Source: Chitinophagaceae bacterium (GTDB lineage: Bacteria; Bacteroidota; Bacteroidia; Chitinophagales; Chitinophagaceae). Taken from it: DNA of 48,080 bases. The stretch covers positions 1-48,080 of the forward strand of contig JADGPX010000001.1 of NCBI GenBank assembly GCA_017882215.1. Direction: 5' to 3'. Position numbers and translations under genes: made by a program. Below are positions 18,931 through 33,614 of the stretch, in pieces. A model generated the notes under the pieces. The model did no database searches. It was not told the DNA's origin and saw only the letters and a list, made by a program, of their open reading frames with translations. The stretch's first letter is position 1. Each line of letters starts with the position of its first letter.

Positions 18931-19046
18931 TGTCAGTTGTGAGTTGTGAGTTGTCAGCCTGCCTGTCCGGTAGGCAGGTAATCAATAAGCCATTTAGTCA
19001 TTAAATCATTATATATTTATTTGTATACCCCTTTAGGGGATAGGGG
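18931..19046. repeat. Composite repeat locus: TGTSAGT heptamers, a 21-nt palindromic element (18958-18978), octamers and a family B hairpin (19028-19046)
   Basis: TGTCAGT TGTGAGT TGTGAGT TGTCAG[CCTGCCTGTCCGGTAGGCAGG]T...CCCCTTTAGGGGATAGGGG. Confidence 0.85.
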
Positions 19047-19100: not shown

Positions 19101-19799
19101 ATGAACCAGGGAAAAGAATTTGAAAAATTCGCCATAAAACATCAGGGTATCAGCAGCCATACTTTGCATGATTACATCCAACATAATGTAACCAATCTTA
19201 CTCCGAATATCATTGAAGAAAGACCAATGAACATTGCTGTAATGGATGTTTACAGCCGTTTGATGATGGACAGAATAATTTTTTTGGGGTATCCTGTATC
19301 TGATGAGGTTGCAAATATTATTACAGCCCAGCTATTATTTTTAGAAAGTACTGACCGCACAAGAGATATTCAGCTCTATATAAATTCTCCCGGTGGCAGT
19401 GTATATGCAGGCCTTGGCTTGTATGACACAATGCAATTTGTAAGTCCGGATATTGCTACTATTTGTACAGGTATGGCAGCAAGTATGGCAGCAGTTTTAA
19501 TGGCTGCAGGCGCACCGGGAAAACGTACTGCATTAAAACATGCACGTATCATGATGCATCAGCCAAGTGCCGGTGCAATGGGGCAGGCAAGTGATGTGGA
19601 GATAACCGTAAATGAAGTAAGAAAAGTAAAGCAGGAATTATATGAAGTACTTTCAACTCATACAGGGCAAACCGTAGAAAAAGTTGCTAAAGACTGCAAC
19701 CGTGATTACTGGATGACAGCTCCGGAAGCAAAAGATTATGGTTTGGTAGATGAAGTTTTATTGATCAATTCAAAAAAAGAAAAAAAATTAAAGCCTTAA
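19101..19799 (+). CDS. clpP: ATP-dependent Clp protease proteolytic subunit
   Basis: [38 protein letters not shown]. Confidence 0.95.
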
Positions 19800-23784: not shown

Positions 23785-25092
23785 GTGAATAGAAAGTTTA
23801 CATCTTATCAGGTAAATAATTTTATTGAGTGTAAAACTAAAATGTTGAATTGGGCAAAACAGTTCAACATTTTTTGTTTGCTTGATAATCATCAATATAA
23901 TTTTTCCGATTCGCAATTCGAATGTTTATTGGCAGCAGGCTCAGTTAAAACGCTGCAATCTACACCTGGTAATGCTTTTGAAGGTTTACAAGAATTTGTT
24001 CAGGAGGAGCAGGATTGGATATTCGGTCATCTTGGCTATGATCTTAAAAATGAGATCGAGAATTTATCTTCTAAAAATTTTGATGGTATTCAATTTCCTG
24101 ACCTATTCTTTTTTGTACCACAAATTATTTTAATTCTAAAAGAAAATAAGTTAGAGATTGGTGTTATTGATAAAGACGCTGATGTTATTTTTAATGCAAT
24201 TCTTTCAACATCTGCAAGCTCTTTACCCATACGATCTAAACCTCAGAAAATAAAAAGCAGATTTTCTAAAGAAGAATATTTAAGCGCTGTTAAGCATATT
24301 CAGCAGCATATTCTTCGCGGAGATTGTTATGAAATAAATTTTTGCCAGGAATTTTATGCCGAAAATTGCGAAATCGATCCCTTAGATATTTATTTAAAAC
24401 TTAGTCGGCTTTCTCCAAATCCTTTTGCCGGATTTTATAAGCTTAATGATAAATTTTTAGTGTGCTCCAGTCCGGAAAGATTTTTAAAGAGGCTTGGCAA
24501 TAAAATATTTTCCCAGCCAATAAAAGGAACATCTAAAAGAAATTTAAATAATGTAAAAGAAGATGAAAGAAATAAAAAGAAATTATCCCGGAACAAAAAA
24601 GAGATCTCGGAAAATGTAATGGTGGTAGATTTAGTGCGTAATGATCTTAGTAAAGTATGTATAGAAGGATCGGTTAAAGTGGAAGAGCTTTTTGGGCTTT
24701 ATACATTTCCGCAGGTTCATCAAATGATCTCAACTGTATGCGGAACAATTGATAAACATGCCAGCCTTTCTGATATTTTAAAAGCCACCTTTCCCATGGG
24801 TTCTATGACTGGTGTTCCTAAAAAAAGTGTAATGCATTTGATAGAGAAGTATGAAAAAACAAAGCGTGGTTTATTTTCAGGTGCAATTGGATACATAACG
24901 CCTGAAGGAGACCTGCCTGCCGGACAGGCAGGTTTTGATTTTAATGTAGTGATACGGAGTATACTTTATAATTCAACCAATAAATATGTAAGTATGCAGG
25001 CAGGTTCGGCAATTACTTTTTATAGTGAGGCAGAAAGAGAATATGAAGAATGCCTGGTAAAAATTGAAGCGATGAAAAAAGTACTGAAGTGA
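23785..25092 (+). CDS. pabB: Aminodeoxychorismate synthase component I / anthranilate synthase component I family, with a 7-aa insertion
   Basis: SSPERF, PIKGT, ENVMVVDLVRNDL, FPMGSMTG, FNVVIRS, EYEE; LPAGQAG insert. Confidence 0.85.
   Translation: MNRKFTSYQVNNFIECKTKMLNWAKQFNIFCLLDNHQYNFSDSQFECLLAAGSVKTLQSTPGNAFEGLQEFVQEEQDWIFGHLGYDLKNEIENLSSKNFDGIQFPDLFFFVPQIILILKENKLEIGVIDKDADVIFNAILSTSASSLPIRSKPQKIKSRFSKEEYLSAVKHIQQHILRGDCYEINFCQEFYAENCEIDPLDIYLKLSRLSPNPFAGFYKLNDKFLVCSSPERFLKRLGNKIFSQPIKGTSKRNLNNVKEDERNKKKLSRNKKEISENVMVVDLVRNDLSKVCIEGSVKVEELFGLYTFPQVHQMISTVCGTIDKHASLSDILKATFPMGSMTGVPKKSVMHLIEKYEKTKRGLFSGAIGYITPEGDLPAGQAGFDFNVVIRSILYNSTNKYVSMQAGSAITFYSEAEREYEECLVKIEAMKKVLK
24912..24932. 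mobile_element. 21-nt palindromic mini-element inserted in frame in pabB (family A)
   Basis: CCTGCCTGCCGGACAGGCAGG, exact reverse complement of the copy at 32731-32751; removal restores GGA GAT TTT GAT (GDFDFNVVIR). Confidence 0.85.
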
Positions 25093-26250
25093 TTATTTTT
25101 TCTTTTTGAACATTTTCTGATCAGGATAAACCGTTTTAGTTTCGGTATTAACTGTATTCAATAAAACATGCACACATTCATTAAGAATAGGATATTTATT
25201 GGCTACAAAAAGATCCATTTTATCAGAAGGTAATCTAAGGTCGAATCCTTCACCTGAAGACATTACCATATCAAAGCCCGGATTTAAACGATTAAATTCT
25301 ATGATATCCATAGAAAGATTTTTCGCAATAATTACTGAATTATATTTTCCGGAAATATTCAGTACTTCAGAATTATTAGCATCTTCCTGCGAAACAGTAG
25401 ATTTAAATACATTATTGCCAGCTCTTAATGTTGAATAATCCATATTACCGGAAGTGGTGTTATCACCAGCTTCCATAATATAATGCGTGGCAATAAATTT
25501 CTTTACATGATTGCGGGATTCTTCCGGCAAATAATATTGTAAAGCCCAAAAATTTCTTGATCCGCTTTGCCTGATAGCGCTGTAAACTCTTGCAGGACCA
25601 CCGTTATAGGCTGCAATTACAAGCAACCAATCTTTTAGATCTTTATATAAAGTGAGCAAATATCTTGCTGCAGCATTGGTGCTTTTAAAATAATCTGTTC
25701 TTTCGTCAATAAATCCATTTACCTGTAATCCATAATCTTTTGCAGTATAGCTCATAAACTGCCAGGGGCCACGGGCACCTACCCACGATGTAGCGTTTGA
25801 ATTTAAATTACTTTCAATAACAGCCAGGTATTTTAATTCTTTGGGTAAGCCATATTGAGTAAGAATATTATCAATAAAATTAAATTTTAAAGATGCTGTG
25901 CTTTTTAATTTTTGCAGATAACTTCCATGCGCCTGTAAATAATCCTGCATATAACTTTCAGCATAAGGATTTACCTGGGACGAATAAGGCATTGTTGAAT
26001 TGTAGGAATAATTTTTAAAAAGATTCTTAAAGCCATATTTAGTTTCCTGGCTCAGGTATTGGATCTTTTCTTTTTTAGGAAGTTCCCTGGATTTTAATAT
26101 TTCATCAATTGCTTCATCTTCCGAATCAGCTGATTTTACTATCGTATCTGTTAAAGATTTTTGCAAAGGATTTTTATCCCCAAAATTTTTTGCAGAAGAA
26201 CTGTATTGTAATACAATTAAAAAGAAAGATATGGATAGAAATCTTTTCAT
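25093..26250 (-). CDS. Lytic transglycosylase (SLT domain, MltD-like)
   Basis: LAVIESNL, GPWQFM, AAYNGG, ESRNHV. Confidence 0.9.
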   Translation of the reverse strand: MKRFLSISFFLIVLQYSSSAKNFGDKNPLQKSLTDTIVKSADSEDEAIDEILKSRELPKKEKIQYLSQETKYGFKNLFKNYSYNSTMPYSSQVNPYAESYMQDYLQAHGSYLQKLKSTASLKFNFIDNILTQYGLPKELKYLAVIESNLNSNATSWVGARGPWQFMSYTAKDYGLQVNGFIDERTDYFKSTNAAARYLLTLYKDLKDWLLVIAAYNGGPARVYSAIRQSGSRNFWALQYYLPEESRNHVKKFIATHYIMEAGDNTTSGNMDYSTLRAGNNVFKSTVSQEDANNSEVLNISGKYNSVIIAKNLSMDIIEFNRLNPGFDMVMSSGEGFDLRLPSDKMDLFVANKYPILNECVHVLLNTVNTETKTVYPDQKMFKKKK

Positions 26251-27737
26251 GCCGTTTTATAATCCTTTAATAGCCTGTTTGAAATTTGCAGCAAAGTTAC
26301 TTCATTGTACTTATCTGACATAATCTGAACGCCAAAAGGCATGTTATTAAAGTGTTTAAATAACGGCAGAGAAATTGCCGGAATGCCGGTAAGATTGGCA
26401 AATACCGTATAAATATCAGCCAAATACGTTGCTACCGGATCTTTTTCCATTGTGCCAATATTTAACGCAGTAGCAGGTACTGTTGGTATAAGGATGGCAT
26501 CAAAATCTTTGAAGATCTTTTTTGTTTGGTCAACCAATAGCCTTCTAACCTGTTGAGCTTTAGTAAAATATGCTTCATAATAACCTGAGCTTAAAACAAA
26601 AGTCCCTAACATTATTCTGCGTTTCACTTCCTTTCCAAAACCTTTTGTACGAGCTTTAGTATACATATCTGTAAGATTGATATCTGGATTTCCTTCTCTA
26701 TAGCCAAAACGTACACCATCGTATCGGGATAAATTGCTTGATGCTTCTGCAGTGGCTAAAACATAATAAGCAGGCACTATATAATCCAACAATTCAAAAT
26801 CAATTCCCTTTACTTCATACCCATCTGCTCTTAATTTTTTAATAAGGTCTTCTATGCTATTTTTTATTTCAGGATCAAGAGAAGGATGATCCAAAGCATT
26901 TTTAAAATAAGCAAATTTACATCTTGGATTATTATCAGTTGAAGAACTAAATTTTTCTAATTTTTTATTGGAAACCGTGCTATCATAGTCATCTTCTCCC
27001 GAAATAACTTCTAATACTAAAGCCACATCTTCTATATTATTTCCAAAAATTCCGATCTGGTCAAAAGAGGAAGCGTAGGCAATTAATCCATGCCTGGAAA
27101 CTCTGCCATAAGTAGGTTTCAAGCCGATTATTCCGCAAAAATCTGCCGGTTGCCTTACGGAACCTCCTGTATCACTTCCCAGGCTTATCATACACAAAAC
27201 AGCCTGTACAGCTACTGCAGAGCCACCTGAAGAGCCGCCCGGGACCTTTGTTTCATCTAATGCGTTTAAGACCTTTCCATAAGCAGAATTTTCATTAGTG
27301 CTGCCCATTGCGAATTCATCGCAATTGCAATTGCCTATAATTATAGCATCTTCTGCCAATAATTTTTCAACTACAGTTGAATTATAAACAGAGGTAAAGC
27401 CCCGTCCGACCGAGTCATCCCCGTCCGTACCGGCACGGGCAGGCGGGCGGGCTTTTAAAATATTGGATGCTGCACTTACCTTGTGGTCTTTATAACAGAT
27501 AACATCCTTAAGTGCTACAACAACTCCATAAAGTTTTCCTAAAGACTTCCCGTTGATTCTTTTTGCATCTAACTCCTTTGCCCTTTCTATACTTTCTTCT
27601 TCATAAACTTCAATAAAAGCATTAAGGTGTTTGAAATCCCTGATCTTATTAAGAAAATATTTTACAGCATTCTCACAACCATTTTTATCGTTTGCAAGTT
27701 CTTGCTGGTATTGTTGTATAGTTTTGCTTTGATACAA
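26247..27737 (-). CDS. gatA: Asp/Glu-tRNA amidotransferase subunit A, with a 17-aa insertion
   Basis: VALKD, DEFAMGST, PGGSSGGSA, GSDTGGSVRQPA, SSNLSRYDG, EVKRRIMLGT; TTG start. Confidence 0.95.
   Translation of the reverse strand: MYQSKTIQQYQQELANDKNGCENAVKYFLNKIRDFKHLNAFIEVYEEESIERAKELDAKRINGKSLGKLYGVVVALKDVICYKDHKVSAASNILKARPPARAGTDGDDSVGRGFTSVYNSTVVEKLLAEDAIIIGNCNCDEFAMGSTNENSAYGKVLNALDETKVPGGSSGGSAVAVQAVLCMISLGSDTGGSVRQPADFCGIIGLKPTYGRVSRHGLIAYASSFDQIGIFGNNIEDVALVLEVISGEDDYDSTVSNKKLEKFSSSTDNNPRCKFAYFKNALDHPSLDPEIKNSIEDLIKKLRADGYEVKGIDFELLDYIVPAYYVLATAEASSNLSRYDGVRFGYREGNPDINLTDMYTKARTKGFGKEVKRRIMLGTFVLSSGYYEAYFTKAQQVRRLLVDQTKKIFKDFDAILIPTVPATALNIGTMEKDPVATYLADIYTVFANLTGIPAISLPLFKHFNNMPFGVQIMSDKYNEVTLLQISNRLLKDYKTA
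27401..27451. mobile_element. 51-nt nested palindromic insertion in gatA: a 27-nt element interrupted by a 24-nt element (family A variants)
   Basis: Minus strand AAAG[CCCGCCCG(CCTGCCCGTGCCGGTACGGACGGG)GATGACTCGGTCGGACGGG]GCTTT; removal restores AAA GGC TTT (ILKGFTS). Confidence 0.85.
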
Positions 27738-31176: not shown

Positions 31177-33614
31177 TAAGAGGCTTTTCTTATTTCTGCG
31201 CCTAATTCTTTTTCATAAGATACAATTATTTTATTCATCATTGCATCAATCTCTTTATCAGTAAGTGTTTTTTCTTTGTCAGAAAAAGTAAAACTAACTG
31301 CAAGAGATCTTTTATCCTGTCCTAATTTTTCGCTTTCAAAAATATCAAACAATTTAATGTTAACCAGTTTAGAAATGTTTAAAGACTTAATTAAGCTTTC
31401 CACATTTTCATAAGAAATATTTTTATTCACTATCATCGATATATCTCTTTGTACTTCCGGATATTTTGATATTTCTGAAAATTCAATTTTTACTTTCTTA
31501 GCAAATCCTGTTAATTTTCCCCAATTTATATCAGCAAAAAAAACAGGTTGTTTTATAGAGAATTGTTCAAGTTTGTTTTTATCTACAGTATTTATTTGTG
31601 CAACTAATTCATCGTTAACAAAAGCATTGAGAGAAGAATCAGAAATTTTAAAACTTATATTATCAACTTCTGATGACTGAAATAATTTTTCGCAAACGCC
31701 TTTTACAAAATAAATGTCTGCTTTGGTTTCTTTGCCCCTCCAGCCAAGTTGATTTTTATTTCCGGAAGCATATAAACATAAATGTTCTTCTTCATTGTAA
31801 TTGCCTATACCTGAAGTTGAATAAGCTTTTCCAAATTCAAATAACAGCAGGTCATTGTTTTTGTGATTGATATTATGTGCCACACATTCCAATCCTGTTT
31901 CTAAAAGAGCAGGTCGCATAACATCCAACGCTACGCTTAAATTATTTAGAAGCTTTACTGTTGAATGTAAAACCTCTTCTTTATAATATGCACTGTTAGT
32001 TATTGAGTTGGTAAGTATTTCTGAAAATCCAAGTCCTATTAAATAATTGGCAATTTTTTCTTTGTATGCAAATTCAAATCCTGCGGTTTCCACAGCCGGT
32101 GAAATTGTTATCGCTGATGGAATTTCAACATTATCATATCCATCAATCCTCATTATTTCTTCAATAATATCCGCCGGCAAAGTAATATCCGGTTTACTAA
32201 ATGGCACTGCGATGCGAAGGTCATCCAATCCTTCTTTCAATATCTCAAAATCCAGGCTTTGTAAAATATTTTTTATTGTATCAGGATGATAATTTTTTCC
32301 GCTTATTTTTTTCAGGTAATGATTTCTTAAAACAACTTCTGTTTTCTCTTTCGGGCTTGGATAAACATCAACAACGTCCGATGCTATTTCTCCGCCTGCT
32401 AATTCTTTTATCATAATTGCAGCTCTTTTAAGAACATTAACTGTATTGCTTATATCAACACCTTTCTCAAAACGGTTTGAGGCATCGGTTCTTAAATTAT
32501 GCAGCAAAGAAGTTCTTCTTATAGATTTTGGTTCAAACCAGGCGCTCTCTAAAAAAATATTTTTTGTAGTTTCTTTCACGCTACTCTTAATTCCACCGAA
32601 AACACCACCGAAACACATGGGCTCTTCATCTCCATTGCATATCATAAGATCCTCTGCATTCAATTTTCTTTCTTTTTCATCTAATGTTATAAAGGCTGTT
32701 CCCGCTGCAAGATTTTTTACAATTATTTTACCTGCCTGTCCGGCAGGCAGGTTGCCTTTTATTTTATCAGCATCAAAAGCATGTAAAGGTTGCCCGGTTT
32801 CATGCAGAATATAATTAGTGATATCAACTATATTATTTATTGGACGAACACCAATACTTTTTAATTTTTGTTGCAGCCATTTAGGGCTTTCCTTAACTTT
32901 TATATTGCTTATGCTAACGCCTGAATATCGCTGGCAAGCTTCTTTGTTTTCTATAATAACTTCAATTGGTAATTTATGGTTATCAACTTTAAAATTATTT
33001 TTAAAAGGCGATTTTATTGGAGCACTTTTTTTATTATGATGAGATAAATAAGCATACACATCTTTTGCCACACCCAGATGACTCATTGCATCCATTCGGT
33101 TGGGAGTAATACCTAATTCAAATATCCAATCTGCATAAGGATTAAAATATACTGAAGCTTCACTTCCAACTTCAACATCATTCGGTAAAACTATAATGCC
33201 TTCATGGCTTTCTCCTATTCCTATCTCATCTTCAGCGCATATCATTCCCTGACTTTCGTAGCCGCGGATCTTTGCTTTTTTCATCGTCACCGGTTCACCC
33301 TTTAAAGGATGCAATGTAGTGCCAACTGTTGCAACCACTACCTTTTGCCCTGCAGAAACGTTTGGTGCGCCGCAAACAATTTGAAGCTCACCATTTCCGG
33401 TATTTACTTTTGTAAGTTTTAATTTATCAGCTTCAGGATGTTTTATACATTCTGTTACTTCACCAATTATCAATCCTTCTAACCCGCCTTTTACTTCTTC
33501 ATATTTTTCCAGGCTTTCCACTTCAAGCCCTACAGAAGTTAAGATGCTGCTTAATTTTTCAGGTTCCGGAATCTCCGGTATATATTCACTAAGCCAATTG
33601 TAACTGATTTTCAT
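31176..33614 (-). CDS. pheT: Phenylalanine-tRNA ligase beta subunit, with a 7-aa insertion
   Basis: MKISYNWL, HPEADKL, IVCGAPN, TPNRMD, NNIVDITNY, GQPLHAFD, RFEKGVD, C-terminal FDX-ACB domain. Confidence 0.97.
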   Translation of the reverse strand: MKISYNWLSEYIPEIPEPEKLSSILTSVGLEVESLEKYEEVKGGLEGLIIGEVTECIKHPEADKLKLTKVNTGNGELQIVCGAPNVSAGQKVVVATVGTTLHPLKGEPVTMKKAKIRGYESQGMICAEDEIGIGESHEGIIVLPNDVEVGSEASVYFNPYADWIFELGITPNRMDAMSHLGVAKDVYAYLSHHNKKSAPIKSPFKNNFKVDNHKLPIEVIIENKEACQRYSGVSISNIKVKESPKWLQQKLKSIGVRPINNIVDITNYILHETGQPLHAFDADKIKGNLPAGQAGKIIVKNLAAGTAFITLDEKERKLNAEDLMICNGDEEPMCFGGVFGGIKSSVKETTKNIFLESAWFEPKSIRRTSLLHNLRTDASNRFEKGVDISNTVNVLKRAAIMIKELAGGEIASDVVDVYPSPKEKTEVVLRNHYLKKISGKNYHPDTIKNILQSLDFEILKEGLDDLRIAVPFSKPDITLPADIIEEIMRIDGYDNVEIPSAITISPAVETAGFEFAYKEKIANYLIGLGFSEILTNSITNSAYYKEEVLHSTVKLLNNLSVALDVMRPALLETGLECVAHNINHKNNDLLLFEFGKAYSTSGIGNYNEEEHLCLYASGNKNQLGWRGKETKADIYFVKGVCEKLFQSSEVDNISFKISDSSLNAFVNDELVAQINTVDKNKLEQFSIKQPVFFADINWGKLTGFAKKVKIEFSEISKYPEVQRDISMIVNKNISYENVESLIKSLNISKLVNIKLFDIFESEKLGQDKRSLAVSFTFSDKEKTLTDKEIDAMMNKIIVSYEKELGAEIRKAS
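32731..32751. mobile_element. 21-nt palindromic mini-element inserted in frame in pheT (family A)
   Basis: CCTGCCTGTCCGGCAGGCAGG; removal restores AAA GGC AAT AAA ATA (DKIKGNKIIVK). Confidence 0.85.

What the first reader, a model, noticed from the sequence alone, without database searches (positions are those of the whole stretch)
27401..27451. Nested double insertion adds 17 aa to GatA
Seen: an outer 27-nt element CCCGCCCG-GATGACTCGGT-CGGACGGG is interrupted exactly after its left arm by a 24-nt element CCTGCCCG-TGCCGGTA-CGGACGGG. The frame is preserved at both steps (ARPPARAGTDGDDSVGR). Inference: two successive events by sub-variants with different spacers. The element can target itself, and the gene stayed under selection.
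Basis: partly seen in the sequence, partly recalled or inferred. Interest (0 to 1): 0.85.

Follow-up and report, generated by a model that had tools for sequence, protein, structure and literature searches.

The report
Nested tiny DNA hairpins inside gatA
A tRNA-related gene (gatA) of a soil Chitinophagaceae bacterium carries a 24-base DNA palindrome nested inside a 27-base one; both are scattered through the genome and the same nest sits at the same codon in a distant relative, likely through repeated insertions by an unidentified enzyme, and the 17 extra residues are predicted to form a tolerated floppy loop.

Summary
Window 27401-27451 is a 27-nt palindrome holding a 24-nt one after its 8th base, in frame in gatA (+17 aa), and independent metagenome contigs span it. 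Both parts occur free in the genome, among 157 related 19-29-nt elements; five other loci carry nests, two of them three-deep (21>27>24). Orthologous sites are precisely empty, without target duplication; the 24- and 27-mers prefer G^G. Allele series at several genes (0/27/51, 0/21/72, 27/54) favour stepwise nesting, though a 51-mer moving as one unit is not excluded here. A 67%-identical GatA carries nearly the same 17-aa nest at the same codon, and a shared clade is rejected (p 2e-51). Triplet-length copies accumulate in genes and frameshifting ones do not. GatA is under purifying selection but is probably not essential. The mobilising enzyme was not found. The closest known kind is the cyanobacterial small dispersed repeats (recalled to be 21-27 nt and nested; paper not held), so this is a new family of a known kind.

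The parts
26247..27737 (-). gatA, intact, 496 aa (about 478 in relatives); amidase-signature motifs LKD, GGSSGGS and GSDTGGS present
27444..27451 (-). first 8 nt (left arm) of the outer 27-nt element
27420..27443 (-). inner 24-nt element; folds as a DNA hairpin (z -2.15); inserted at G^G; strains of this species carry the consensus C at 27441 (minus strand)
27401..27419 (-). remaining 19 nt of the outer 27-nt element (bulge, short inner stem with variable 3-nt loop, right arm)
24912..24932 (+). 21-nt family member in frame (LPAGQAG) in the chorismate-binding-domain gene 23785-25092
32731..32751 (-). 21-nt family member in frame (LPAGQAG) in a long ORF
18958..18978 (-). 21-nt family member outside a long ORF, in a short tandem-repeat tract upstream of the gene at 19101

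Best explanation
The 51 bases are two members of a family of 19-29-base GC-rich DNA palindromes, one inside the other, that likely arrived in two steps at a repeatedly hit codon of gatA, likely moved as single-stranded hairpins by an enzyme encoded elsewhere, and are likely translated as a floppy loop. Shown: dispersed copies; precise presence or absence at orthologous sites with no target duplication; subfamily-specific junctions (G^G for the 24- and 27-mers, mostly A^T or A^C for the 20/21-mers); the 24-mer at base 8^9 of 27-mers; nests three deep; scarcity of frameshifting copies in genes. Inferred: the order 27 then 24 at this locus; that the element is cut and pasted at the foot of its own stem; that base 8^9 of the 27-mer is favoured because it is a G^G at the edge of an unpaired bulge, so each landed element supplies a preferred and frame-safe target for the next; that the insert is translated (no RNA or protein data). 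The enzyme is unknown. My lead candidate is a Y1/HUH transposase of IS200/REP type (about 0.35), because that chemistry gives precise, duplication-free single-strand insertion, ahead of a small GIY-YIG (Ssn-like) nuclease (about 0.25).
For: Free copies and five further nests in G000. 5 of 10 24-mers at one site per 27-mer (p about 3e-16 against all GG sites); 4 of 18 24-mers in 11 other genomes likewise nested, with -1 G in 18 of 18 and +1 G in 15 of 18. 9 of 12 G025 elements with an orthologue in G000 are precisely absent there. Allele series: gatA 0/27/51; C63 site 0/21/72; C80 site 27 vs 54 with the same outer loop letters; rhodanese-like gene 27/27/51. 20 different outer sequences among 29 nested loci elsewhere. 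52 of 91 triplet-length copies vs 3 of 66 others lie where a long ORF spans the empty site (p 5e-13). Orientation is biased in genes (51 of 59 sense) but not between co-directional genes (16 of 34), which points to insertion at DNA level with selection on the peptide. Model: residues 97-111 pLDDT <50, core matches solved GatA. dN/dS 0.09-0.12; 6 of 6 listed strain differences outside the insert are silent, 3 of 5 inside change a residue.
Against: No mobiliser was found. Y1 genes were not found in 4 of 34 carriers of the 20-mer (three of them single-contig genomes with one copy each) vs 8 of 46 non-carriers. The TnpA-like family broken by these elements in G000 tracks element load only weakly (rho 0.22, p 0.04; G765 has 61 matches and no hit). 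The element has no room for the separate guide and end motifs of IS200-type ends (from my own knowledge). The 51-mer as a whole does not fold better than shuffles (z -0.7 and -1.4), and the single-sequence folds of 27-mers vary. The C82 and C285 composites had no intermediate in 5 and 4 relatives. No RNA run covered the site.
Confidence: 0.72

Rival explanations
1. The nest formed once or a few times elsewhere, and the 51-mer (or a larger composite) moves as one unit, so gatA was hit once.
For: Six of the seven nearest genomes are empty, and G025's 27-mer has different loop letters. The same 78-nt triple with the same inner loop lies in three different genes (L070, L155, L166). Two of the three 21>27 nests in G000 also hold the 24-mer.
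Against: Outer parts differ among the composites and include both 27-nt subfamilies. Orthologous sites show the intermediate states, once with an identical outer loop. The P0062 group also holds 9-aa alleles.
Confidence: 0.2
2. Small single-domain GIY-YIG (Ssn-like) nucleases cut the hairpins or their host repeats in single-stranded DNA, and host repair ligates the element in; tRNA-linked GIY-YIG cassettes carry it between taxa.
For: 4 of 20 fetched 20-mer loci lie in tRNA-like fragments, 3 of them directly beside a short GIY-YIG-type ORF; similar cases in G000 C197, C246 and G753. GIY-YIG matches: median 6.5 in carriers vs 5.5 (p 0.009, kin not independent). Ssn enzymes cut hairpin single-stranded DNA (PMC11893778, sections 10 and 12 read).
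Against: The elements sit inside spare tRNA copies rather than flanking the gene as a pair; 5 of 7 short GIY-YIG loci in G000 show no complete element within 320 nt (read by eye); all 80 genomes have GIY-YIG hits, and the family includes long UvrC-type proteins; the sections read show cutting, not integration.
Confidence: 0.25
3. The gatA insert is ancient and was lost precisely in most lineages, or was spread between lineages by recombination of a short patch.
For: The AU test does not reject window + G025 as one clade (p 0.15). One G000 site looks like an element lost by microhomology deletion (C321).
Against: The window and P0062 share 14 of 17 insert residues in proteins 67% identical, although the insert changes faster than the gene among strains (4 of 13 differences in 51 of 1740 nt, p 4e-4). 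Starred branches with empty taxa separate them. The residues next to the site differ between them. The DNA of P0062 could not be obtained.
Confidence: 0.07
4. The elements are removed from the RNA or bypassed by ribosomes, so GatA is made without the 17 residues.
For: Hairpin form; no expression data either way.
Against: Non-triplet copies are nearly absent from genes, and one reading frame dominates (19 of 22 and 20 of 25), which removal would not need.
Confidence: 0.03

Closest known systems
Small dispersed repeats (SDR1-8) of Nostoc and relatives (Elhai et al. 2008, Genome Res 18:1484; not held; content recalled except the passages seen in PMC4390886 and PMC5861425)
   Same: Precise, site-specific insertion (SDR5 between bases 3 and 4 of HIP1, passage in PMC4390886). 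Recalled: 21-27 nt long, found in other repeats and in genes, some families nested in copies of themselves, mover unknown.
   Different: [quoted passage not shown] Sequence relationship could not be tested.
GTAG- and CGTC-tagged REPs / REPINs with RAYT (PMC3733652, passages and section 15; PMC6006769, passages, section 12 and part of Table S1)
   Same: 20-40-nt palindromes, some in frame in genes, some inside other repeats; subclass 2.4 REPs insert into their own tnpA gene.
   Different: No unpaired GTAG/CGTC foot; not arranged around a transposase gene; a third of copies lie deep in genes; no REP listed in Table S1 that contained my three motif words matched this family.
Rickettsia palindromic elements (as summarised in PMC10969869, passages)
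   Same: In-frame palindromic inserts in housekeeping genes.
   Different: About 150 bp there, 21-27 here; the word 'nested' does not occur in that review.
Ssn nucleases with NTS/SRM repeats (PMC11893778, abstract and sections 10 and 12)
   Same: Short hairpins near small GIY-YIG genes.
   Different: NTS flank ssnA and are rarely in genes (2%); here the link to GIY-YIG genes is partial.

Membership tests
SDR-type very small mobile elements | dispersed multi-copy repeat under about 30 nt | tested here: met
   157 top-level copies, single elements 19-29 nt
SDR-type very small mobile elements | precise insertion with empty orthologous sites | tested here: met
SDR-type very small mobile elements | nesting in own kind and in other repeats (recalled feature) | tested here: met
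SDR1-8 proper | sequence match to the cyanobacterial families | not testable with these tools
   paper not held
REP/REPIN | unpaired GTAG or CGTC tetranucleotide at the hairpin foot | tested here: not met
   flanks vary beyond one base; empty sites show the element ends at the stem foot
REP/REPIN | copies flanking an intact RAYT gene | tested here: not met
   none of 5 PF01797 loci in G000 has a complete element within 320 nt; elements lie inside broken tnpA copies instead; the assembly is 93% complete
MITE | target-site duplication | tested here: not met
   gap 0 at empty sites; only a one-base G ambiguity
RPE | about 150-bp palindrome | tested here: not met
   19-29 nt
Ssn/SRM | inverted repeats flanking a cd10448 GIY-YIG gene and cut by it | tested here: inconclusive
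   adjacency at some loci; cd10448 assignment and cutting not testable
GatA | TIGR00132 over cut-off, amidase fold, gatB in the genome | tested here: met

The most novel reading that the evidence does not exclude
A phylum-wide set of gene-less 20-27-base DNA hairpins is mobilised by an undescribed single-strand cut-and-join enzyme that reads target structure, so each subfamily builds the landing site for the next and identical multi-step protein insertions evolve repeatedly at the same codon. That would be a minimal, scar-free insertion system.
Probability: 0.25. Interest if true: 0.85.

Novelty: new member of a known kind. Interest (0 to 1): 0.5.

Why it matters
How DNA pieces under 30 bases move is an open question. 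This family offers defined junctions, a fixed nesting site, 0/1/2/3-step alleles at orthologous codons, very uneven loads within one genus (137 pattern matches here, median 6 in 86 others) and a cultured carrier of the nest (Niabella aurantiaca DSM 17617), so the mover can be sought by comparing genomes and by genetics. It also shows the same 17-residue protein insertion in two separate lineages, a warning against using indels as phylogenetic markers in this group. The effect on GatA itself is probably neutral.

Tried and rejected
Assembly artefact: rejected. Target-site duplication or MITE: rejected. Strand bias from transcription as the cause of sense orientation: not supported, no bias between co-directional genes. 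GatA essential because glnS is missing: rejected as probably an assembly gap. A fixed neighbouring gene: none seen at 18 24-mer sites or 20 20-mer sites. Y1 and GIY-YIG co-occurrence: not decisive. Phage carriage: 0 hits for the 24-mer and the window's 27-mer class, 1 for the other 27-mer class, 27 stretches for the 21-mer. RNA runs X18-X20 gave no cover of the site, and run X8 showed only composites from other loci. Cluster members of the window protein, P0008 and P0056 could not be looked up, so the 35 members of the window's cluster were not examined. The single-sequence fold was not collected. Literature: 0 papers for five motif or peptide strings, 0 for Chitinophagaceae + palindromic repeat + insertion + mobile element; nothing on this family in the listings. 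The library lacks most subscription papers, including Elhai 2008.

Full report
Observation. The 51 bases at 27401-27451 read, on the minus strand, as 8 bases of a 27-nt palindrome, a complete 24-nt palindrome, and the other 19 bases. They lie in frame in gatA (26247-27737, 496 aa) and add ARPPARAGTDGDDSVGR. Homologue names point to Chitinophagaceae near Ginsengibacter and Hanamia. Gap-free contigs from two other studies (X4, X10) span the nest, with four substitutions inside it, so it is real and shared by strains.

The family. The genome (35.8% GC) holds 157 top-level copies of 19-29-nt palindromes with arms CCYGCCY...RGRCRGG, after I dropped loose arm pairs by eye and fixed 18 entries by coordinates. 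The subfamilies are 20/21-mers, two 27-mer classes, 22-, 28- and 29-mers, and the 24-mer (10 copies). Junctions are subfamily-specific: the window's 27-mer class has G before it in 23 of 24 and after it in 18 of 24; the 24-mer has G^G in 9 of 10; the 20/21-mers are mostly A^T or A^C. Among 32 distinct 27-mers the arm pairs 1, 2, 4, 6 and 7 always pair, positions 12-14 pair with 18-20 in 28-31 of 32, and 15-17 vary freely. This suggests a stem, a bulge at 8-11 and a small inner hairpin, but single-sequence folds disagree on the inner part. The exact 24-mer is in 12 of 401 family genomes (10 genera), the 20-mer in 35 of 301 phylum genomes, and the 21-mer in 27 stretches of viral contigs. G000 has the highest load of 87 genus genomes (that count includes unpublished G759 and G023).

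Nesting. G000 has six nests: 27>24 at the window, C50 and C285; 21>27 at C181; 21>27>24 at C63 and C82. All five nested 24-mers sit after base 8 of a 27-mer, in both 27-mer classes; by eye, the other five sit in other repeat families. An unbiased set of 18 24-mers from 11 other genomes has 4 in the same nest. A pattern for the nest, which can only find this position, hit 10 loci in 9 genome records, including Niabella aurantiaca DSM 17617, and 19 metagenome stretches, some of them the same sites as in G000; they show 20 different outer sequences.

Order of events. Of 22 G025 elements, 12 had an orthologous site in G000: 9 lack the element precisely and 3 are occupied. At gatA, six of the seven nearest genomes are empty and G025 has the 27-mer alone. 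At C63 relatives show 0, 0, 15 and 21 nt (degenerate), and G029 a clean 21-mer, against 72 here. At C80, G000 has a 27-mer and G025 the same one with a second 27-mer after base 8. A rhodanese-like gene shows 27, 27 and 51; an aldo-keto-reductase-like gene 21 and 51 (gene labels recalled from the sequences, not from a call). These series favour stepwise nesting. Against it: C82 and C285 show no intermediate in 5 and 4 relatives, and one 78-nt triple with identical inner letters lies in three genes.

A recurrent codon. 11 of 117 scored GatA homologues have an insert at this codon, 9 of them (the window's own cluster included) resembling this family; the ranking favours insert-bearing hits. With inserts removed, a 40-taxon tree needs 9 changes; holding the window and P0062 (67% identical, 14 of 17 insert residues shared) together is rejected (p-AU 2.3e-51), while window + G025 is not (p 0.15). 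The insert changes faster than the gene among strains, so near-identity across that distance argues for independent origin.

Effect on proteins. 52 of 91 triplet-length copies lie at least 50 codons inside an ORF; only 3 of 66 others sit where removal leaves such an ORF, and one of those is a broken transposase. In genes 51 of 59 copies are in sense orientation and one frame dominates (ARPDD..GRG, LPAGQAG); between co-directional genes the orientation is even (16 of 34) (crude ORF calls). I infer DNA-level insertion in either orientation, translation, and selection on the peptide. The GatA model has pLDDT under 50 at 97-111, and also at 211-225 and 359-383, so it is only a fair model; it matches solved GatA (TM 0.82). 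dN/dS to four relatives is 0.09-0.12. The six strain differences listed outside the insert are all silent and three of five inside are not; the table was cut, with 53 rows over the 8.4 kb not shown. gatB and asnS are present; glnS was not found but is in 5 of 5 relatives, so the gene is conserved but not shown to be essential.

Mechanism. The element is one hairpin from first base to last, leaves no duplication, and favours other hairpin repeats, spare tRNA copies and even CRISPR-like repeats. That fits cutting and joining of single-stranded DNA by an enzyme acting in trans (inference). Y1/HUH transposases use such chemistry (abstract of PMC6006769 as listed, and my own knowledge), and elements sit inside broken tnpA copies at C99 and C244, but co-occurrence is weak. 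Small GIY-YIG genes are often adjacent and slightly more numerous in carriers, but may only be vehicles. The enzyme stays open.

Comparison and verdict. The defining features of REP, MITE and RPE were not met. The closest kind is the cyanobacterial small dispersed repeats. I was led to them by an earlier AI note, could not read the paper, saw only citing passages, and recall their 21-27-nt size and self-nesting. My searches found no description of this family (and the other listings named under Tried and rejected). New here are the family, its ordered nesting, the allele series and the repeated nest at one codon. Verdict: real, first reading supported, new member of a known kind, interest 0.5. 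The only other use of an unpublished genome is G033, whose loci appear; the counts above use G025 instead.

Noticed in passing
L211:590-1075 (G750:C369): CRISPR-like array in which four consecutive repeats each carry a 20-nt family member at the same G^G, while the next two repeats lack it; the last spacer shown seems to begin another copy.
   Followed up: partly
G000:C197:30594-30924; L212; L102, L105, L117: Short GIY-YIG-type ORFs sit beside tRNA genes and partial tRNA copies; the partial copies carry these palindromes. G525 and G497 have tandem runs of such ORFs at about 300- and 380-nt spacing.
   Followed up: partly
G000:C99:586-813 and C244:9306-9551: TnpA-like (Y1) genes broken by these elements; the related copy at C303 has a stop codon.
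   Followed up: partly
G000:C321:126: Site where G025 has a 27-mer and G000 keeps only a right-arm-like 8-mer in place of the similar target letters: possibly loss by microhomology deletion.
   Followed up: no
G000:C77:2709-2747; L061: A second, unrelated palindrome family (ATCCCGATAGCTATCGGGA type) nested inside these elements.
   Followed up: no
window 32652-32664: All four runs differ from the window at eight of these 13 bases, a short replaced patch near the 21-mer at 32731.
   Followed up: no
L161: Left flank of the C63 site joined through a nest to the flank of another repeat: recombination or misassembly between copies.
   Followed up: no
window 27401-27451: Strain differences concentrate in the insert (4 of 13 in 51 of 1740 nt), all four transitions: relaxed selection, hairpin mutability or conversion among copies.
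   Followed up: partly
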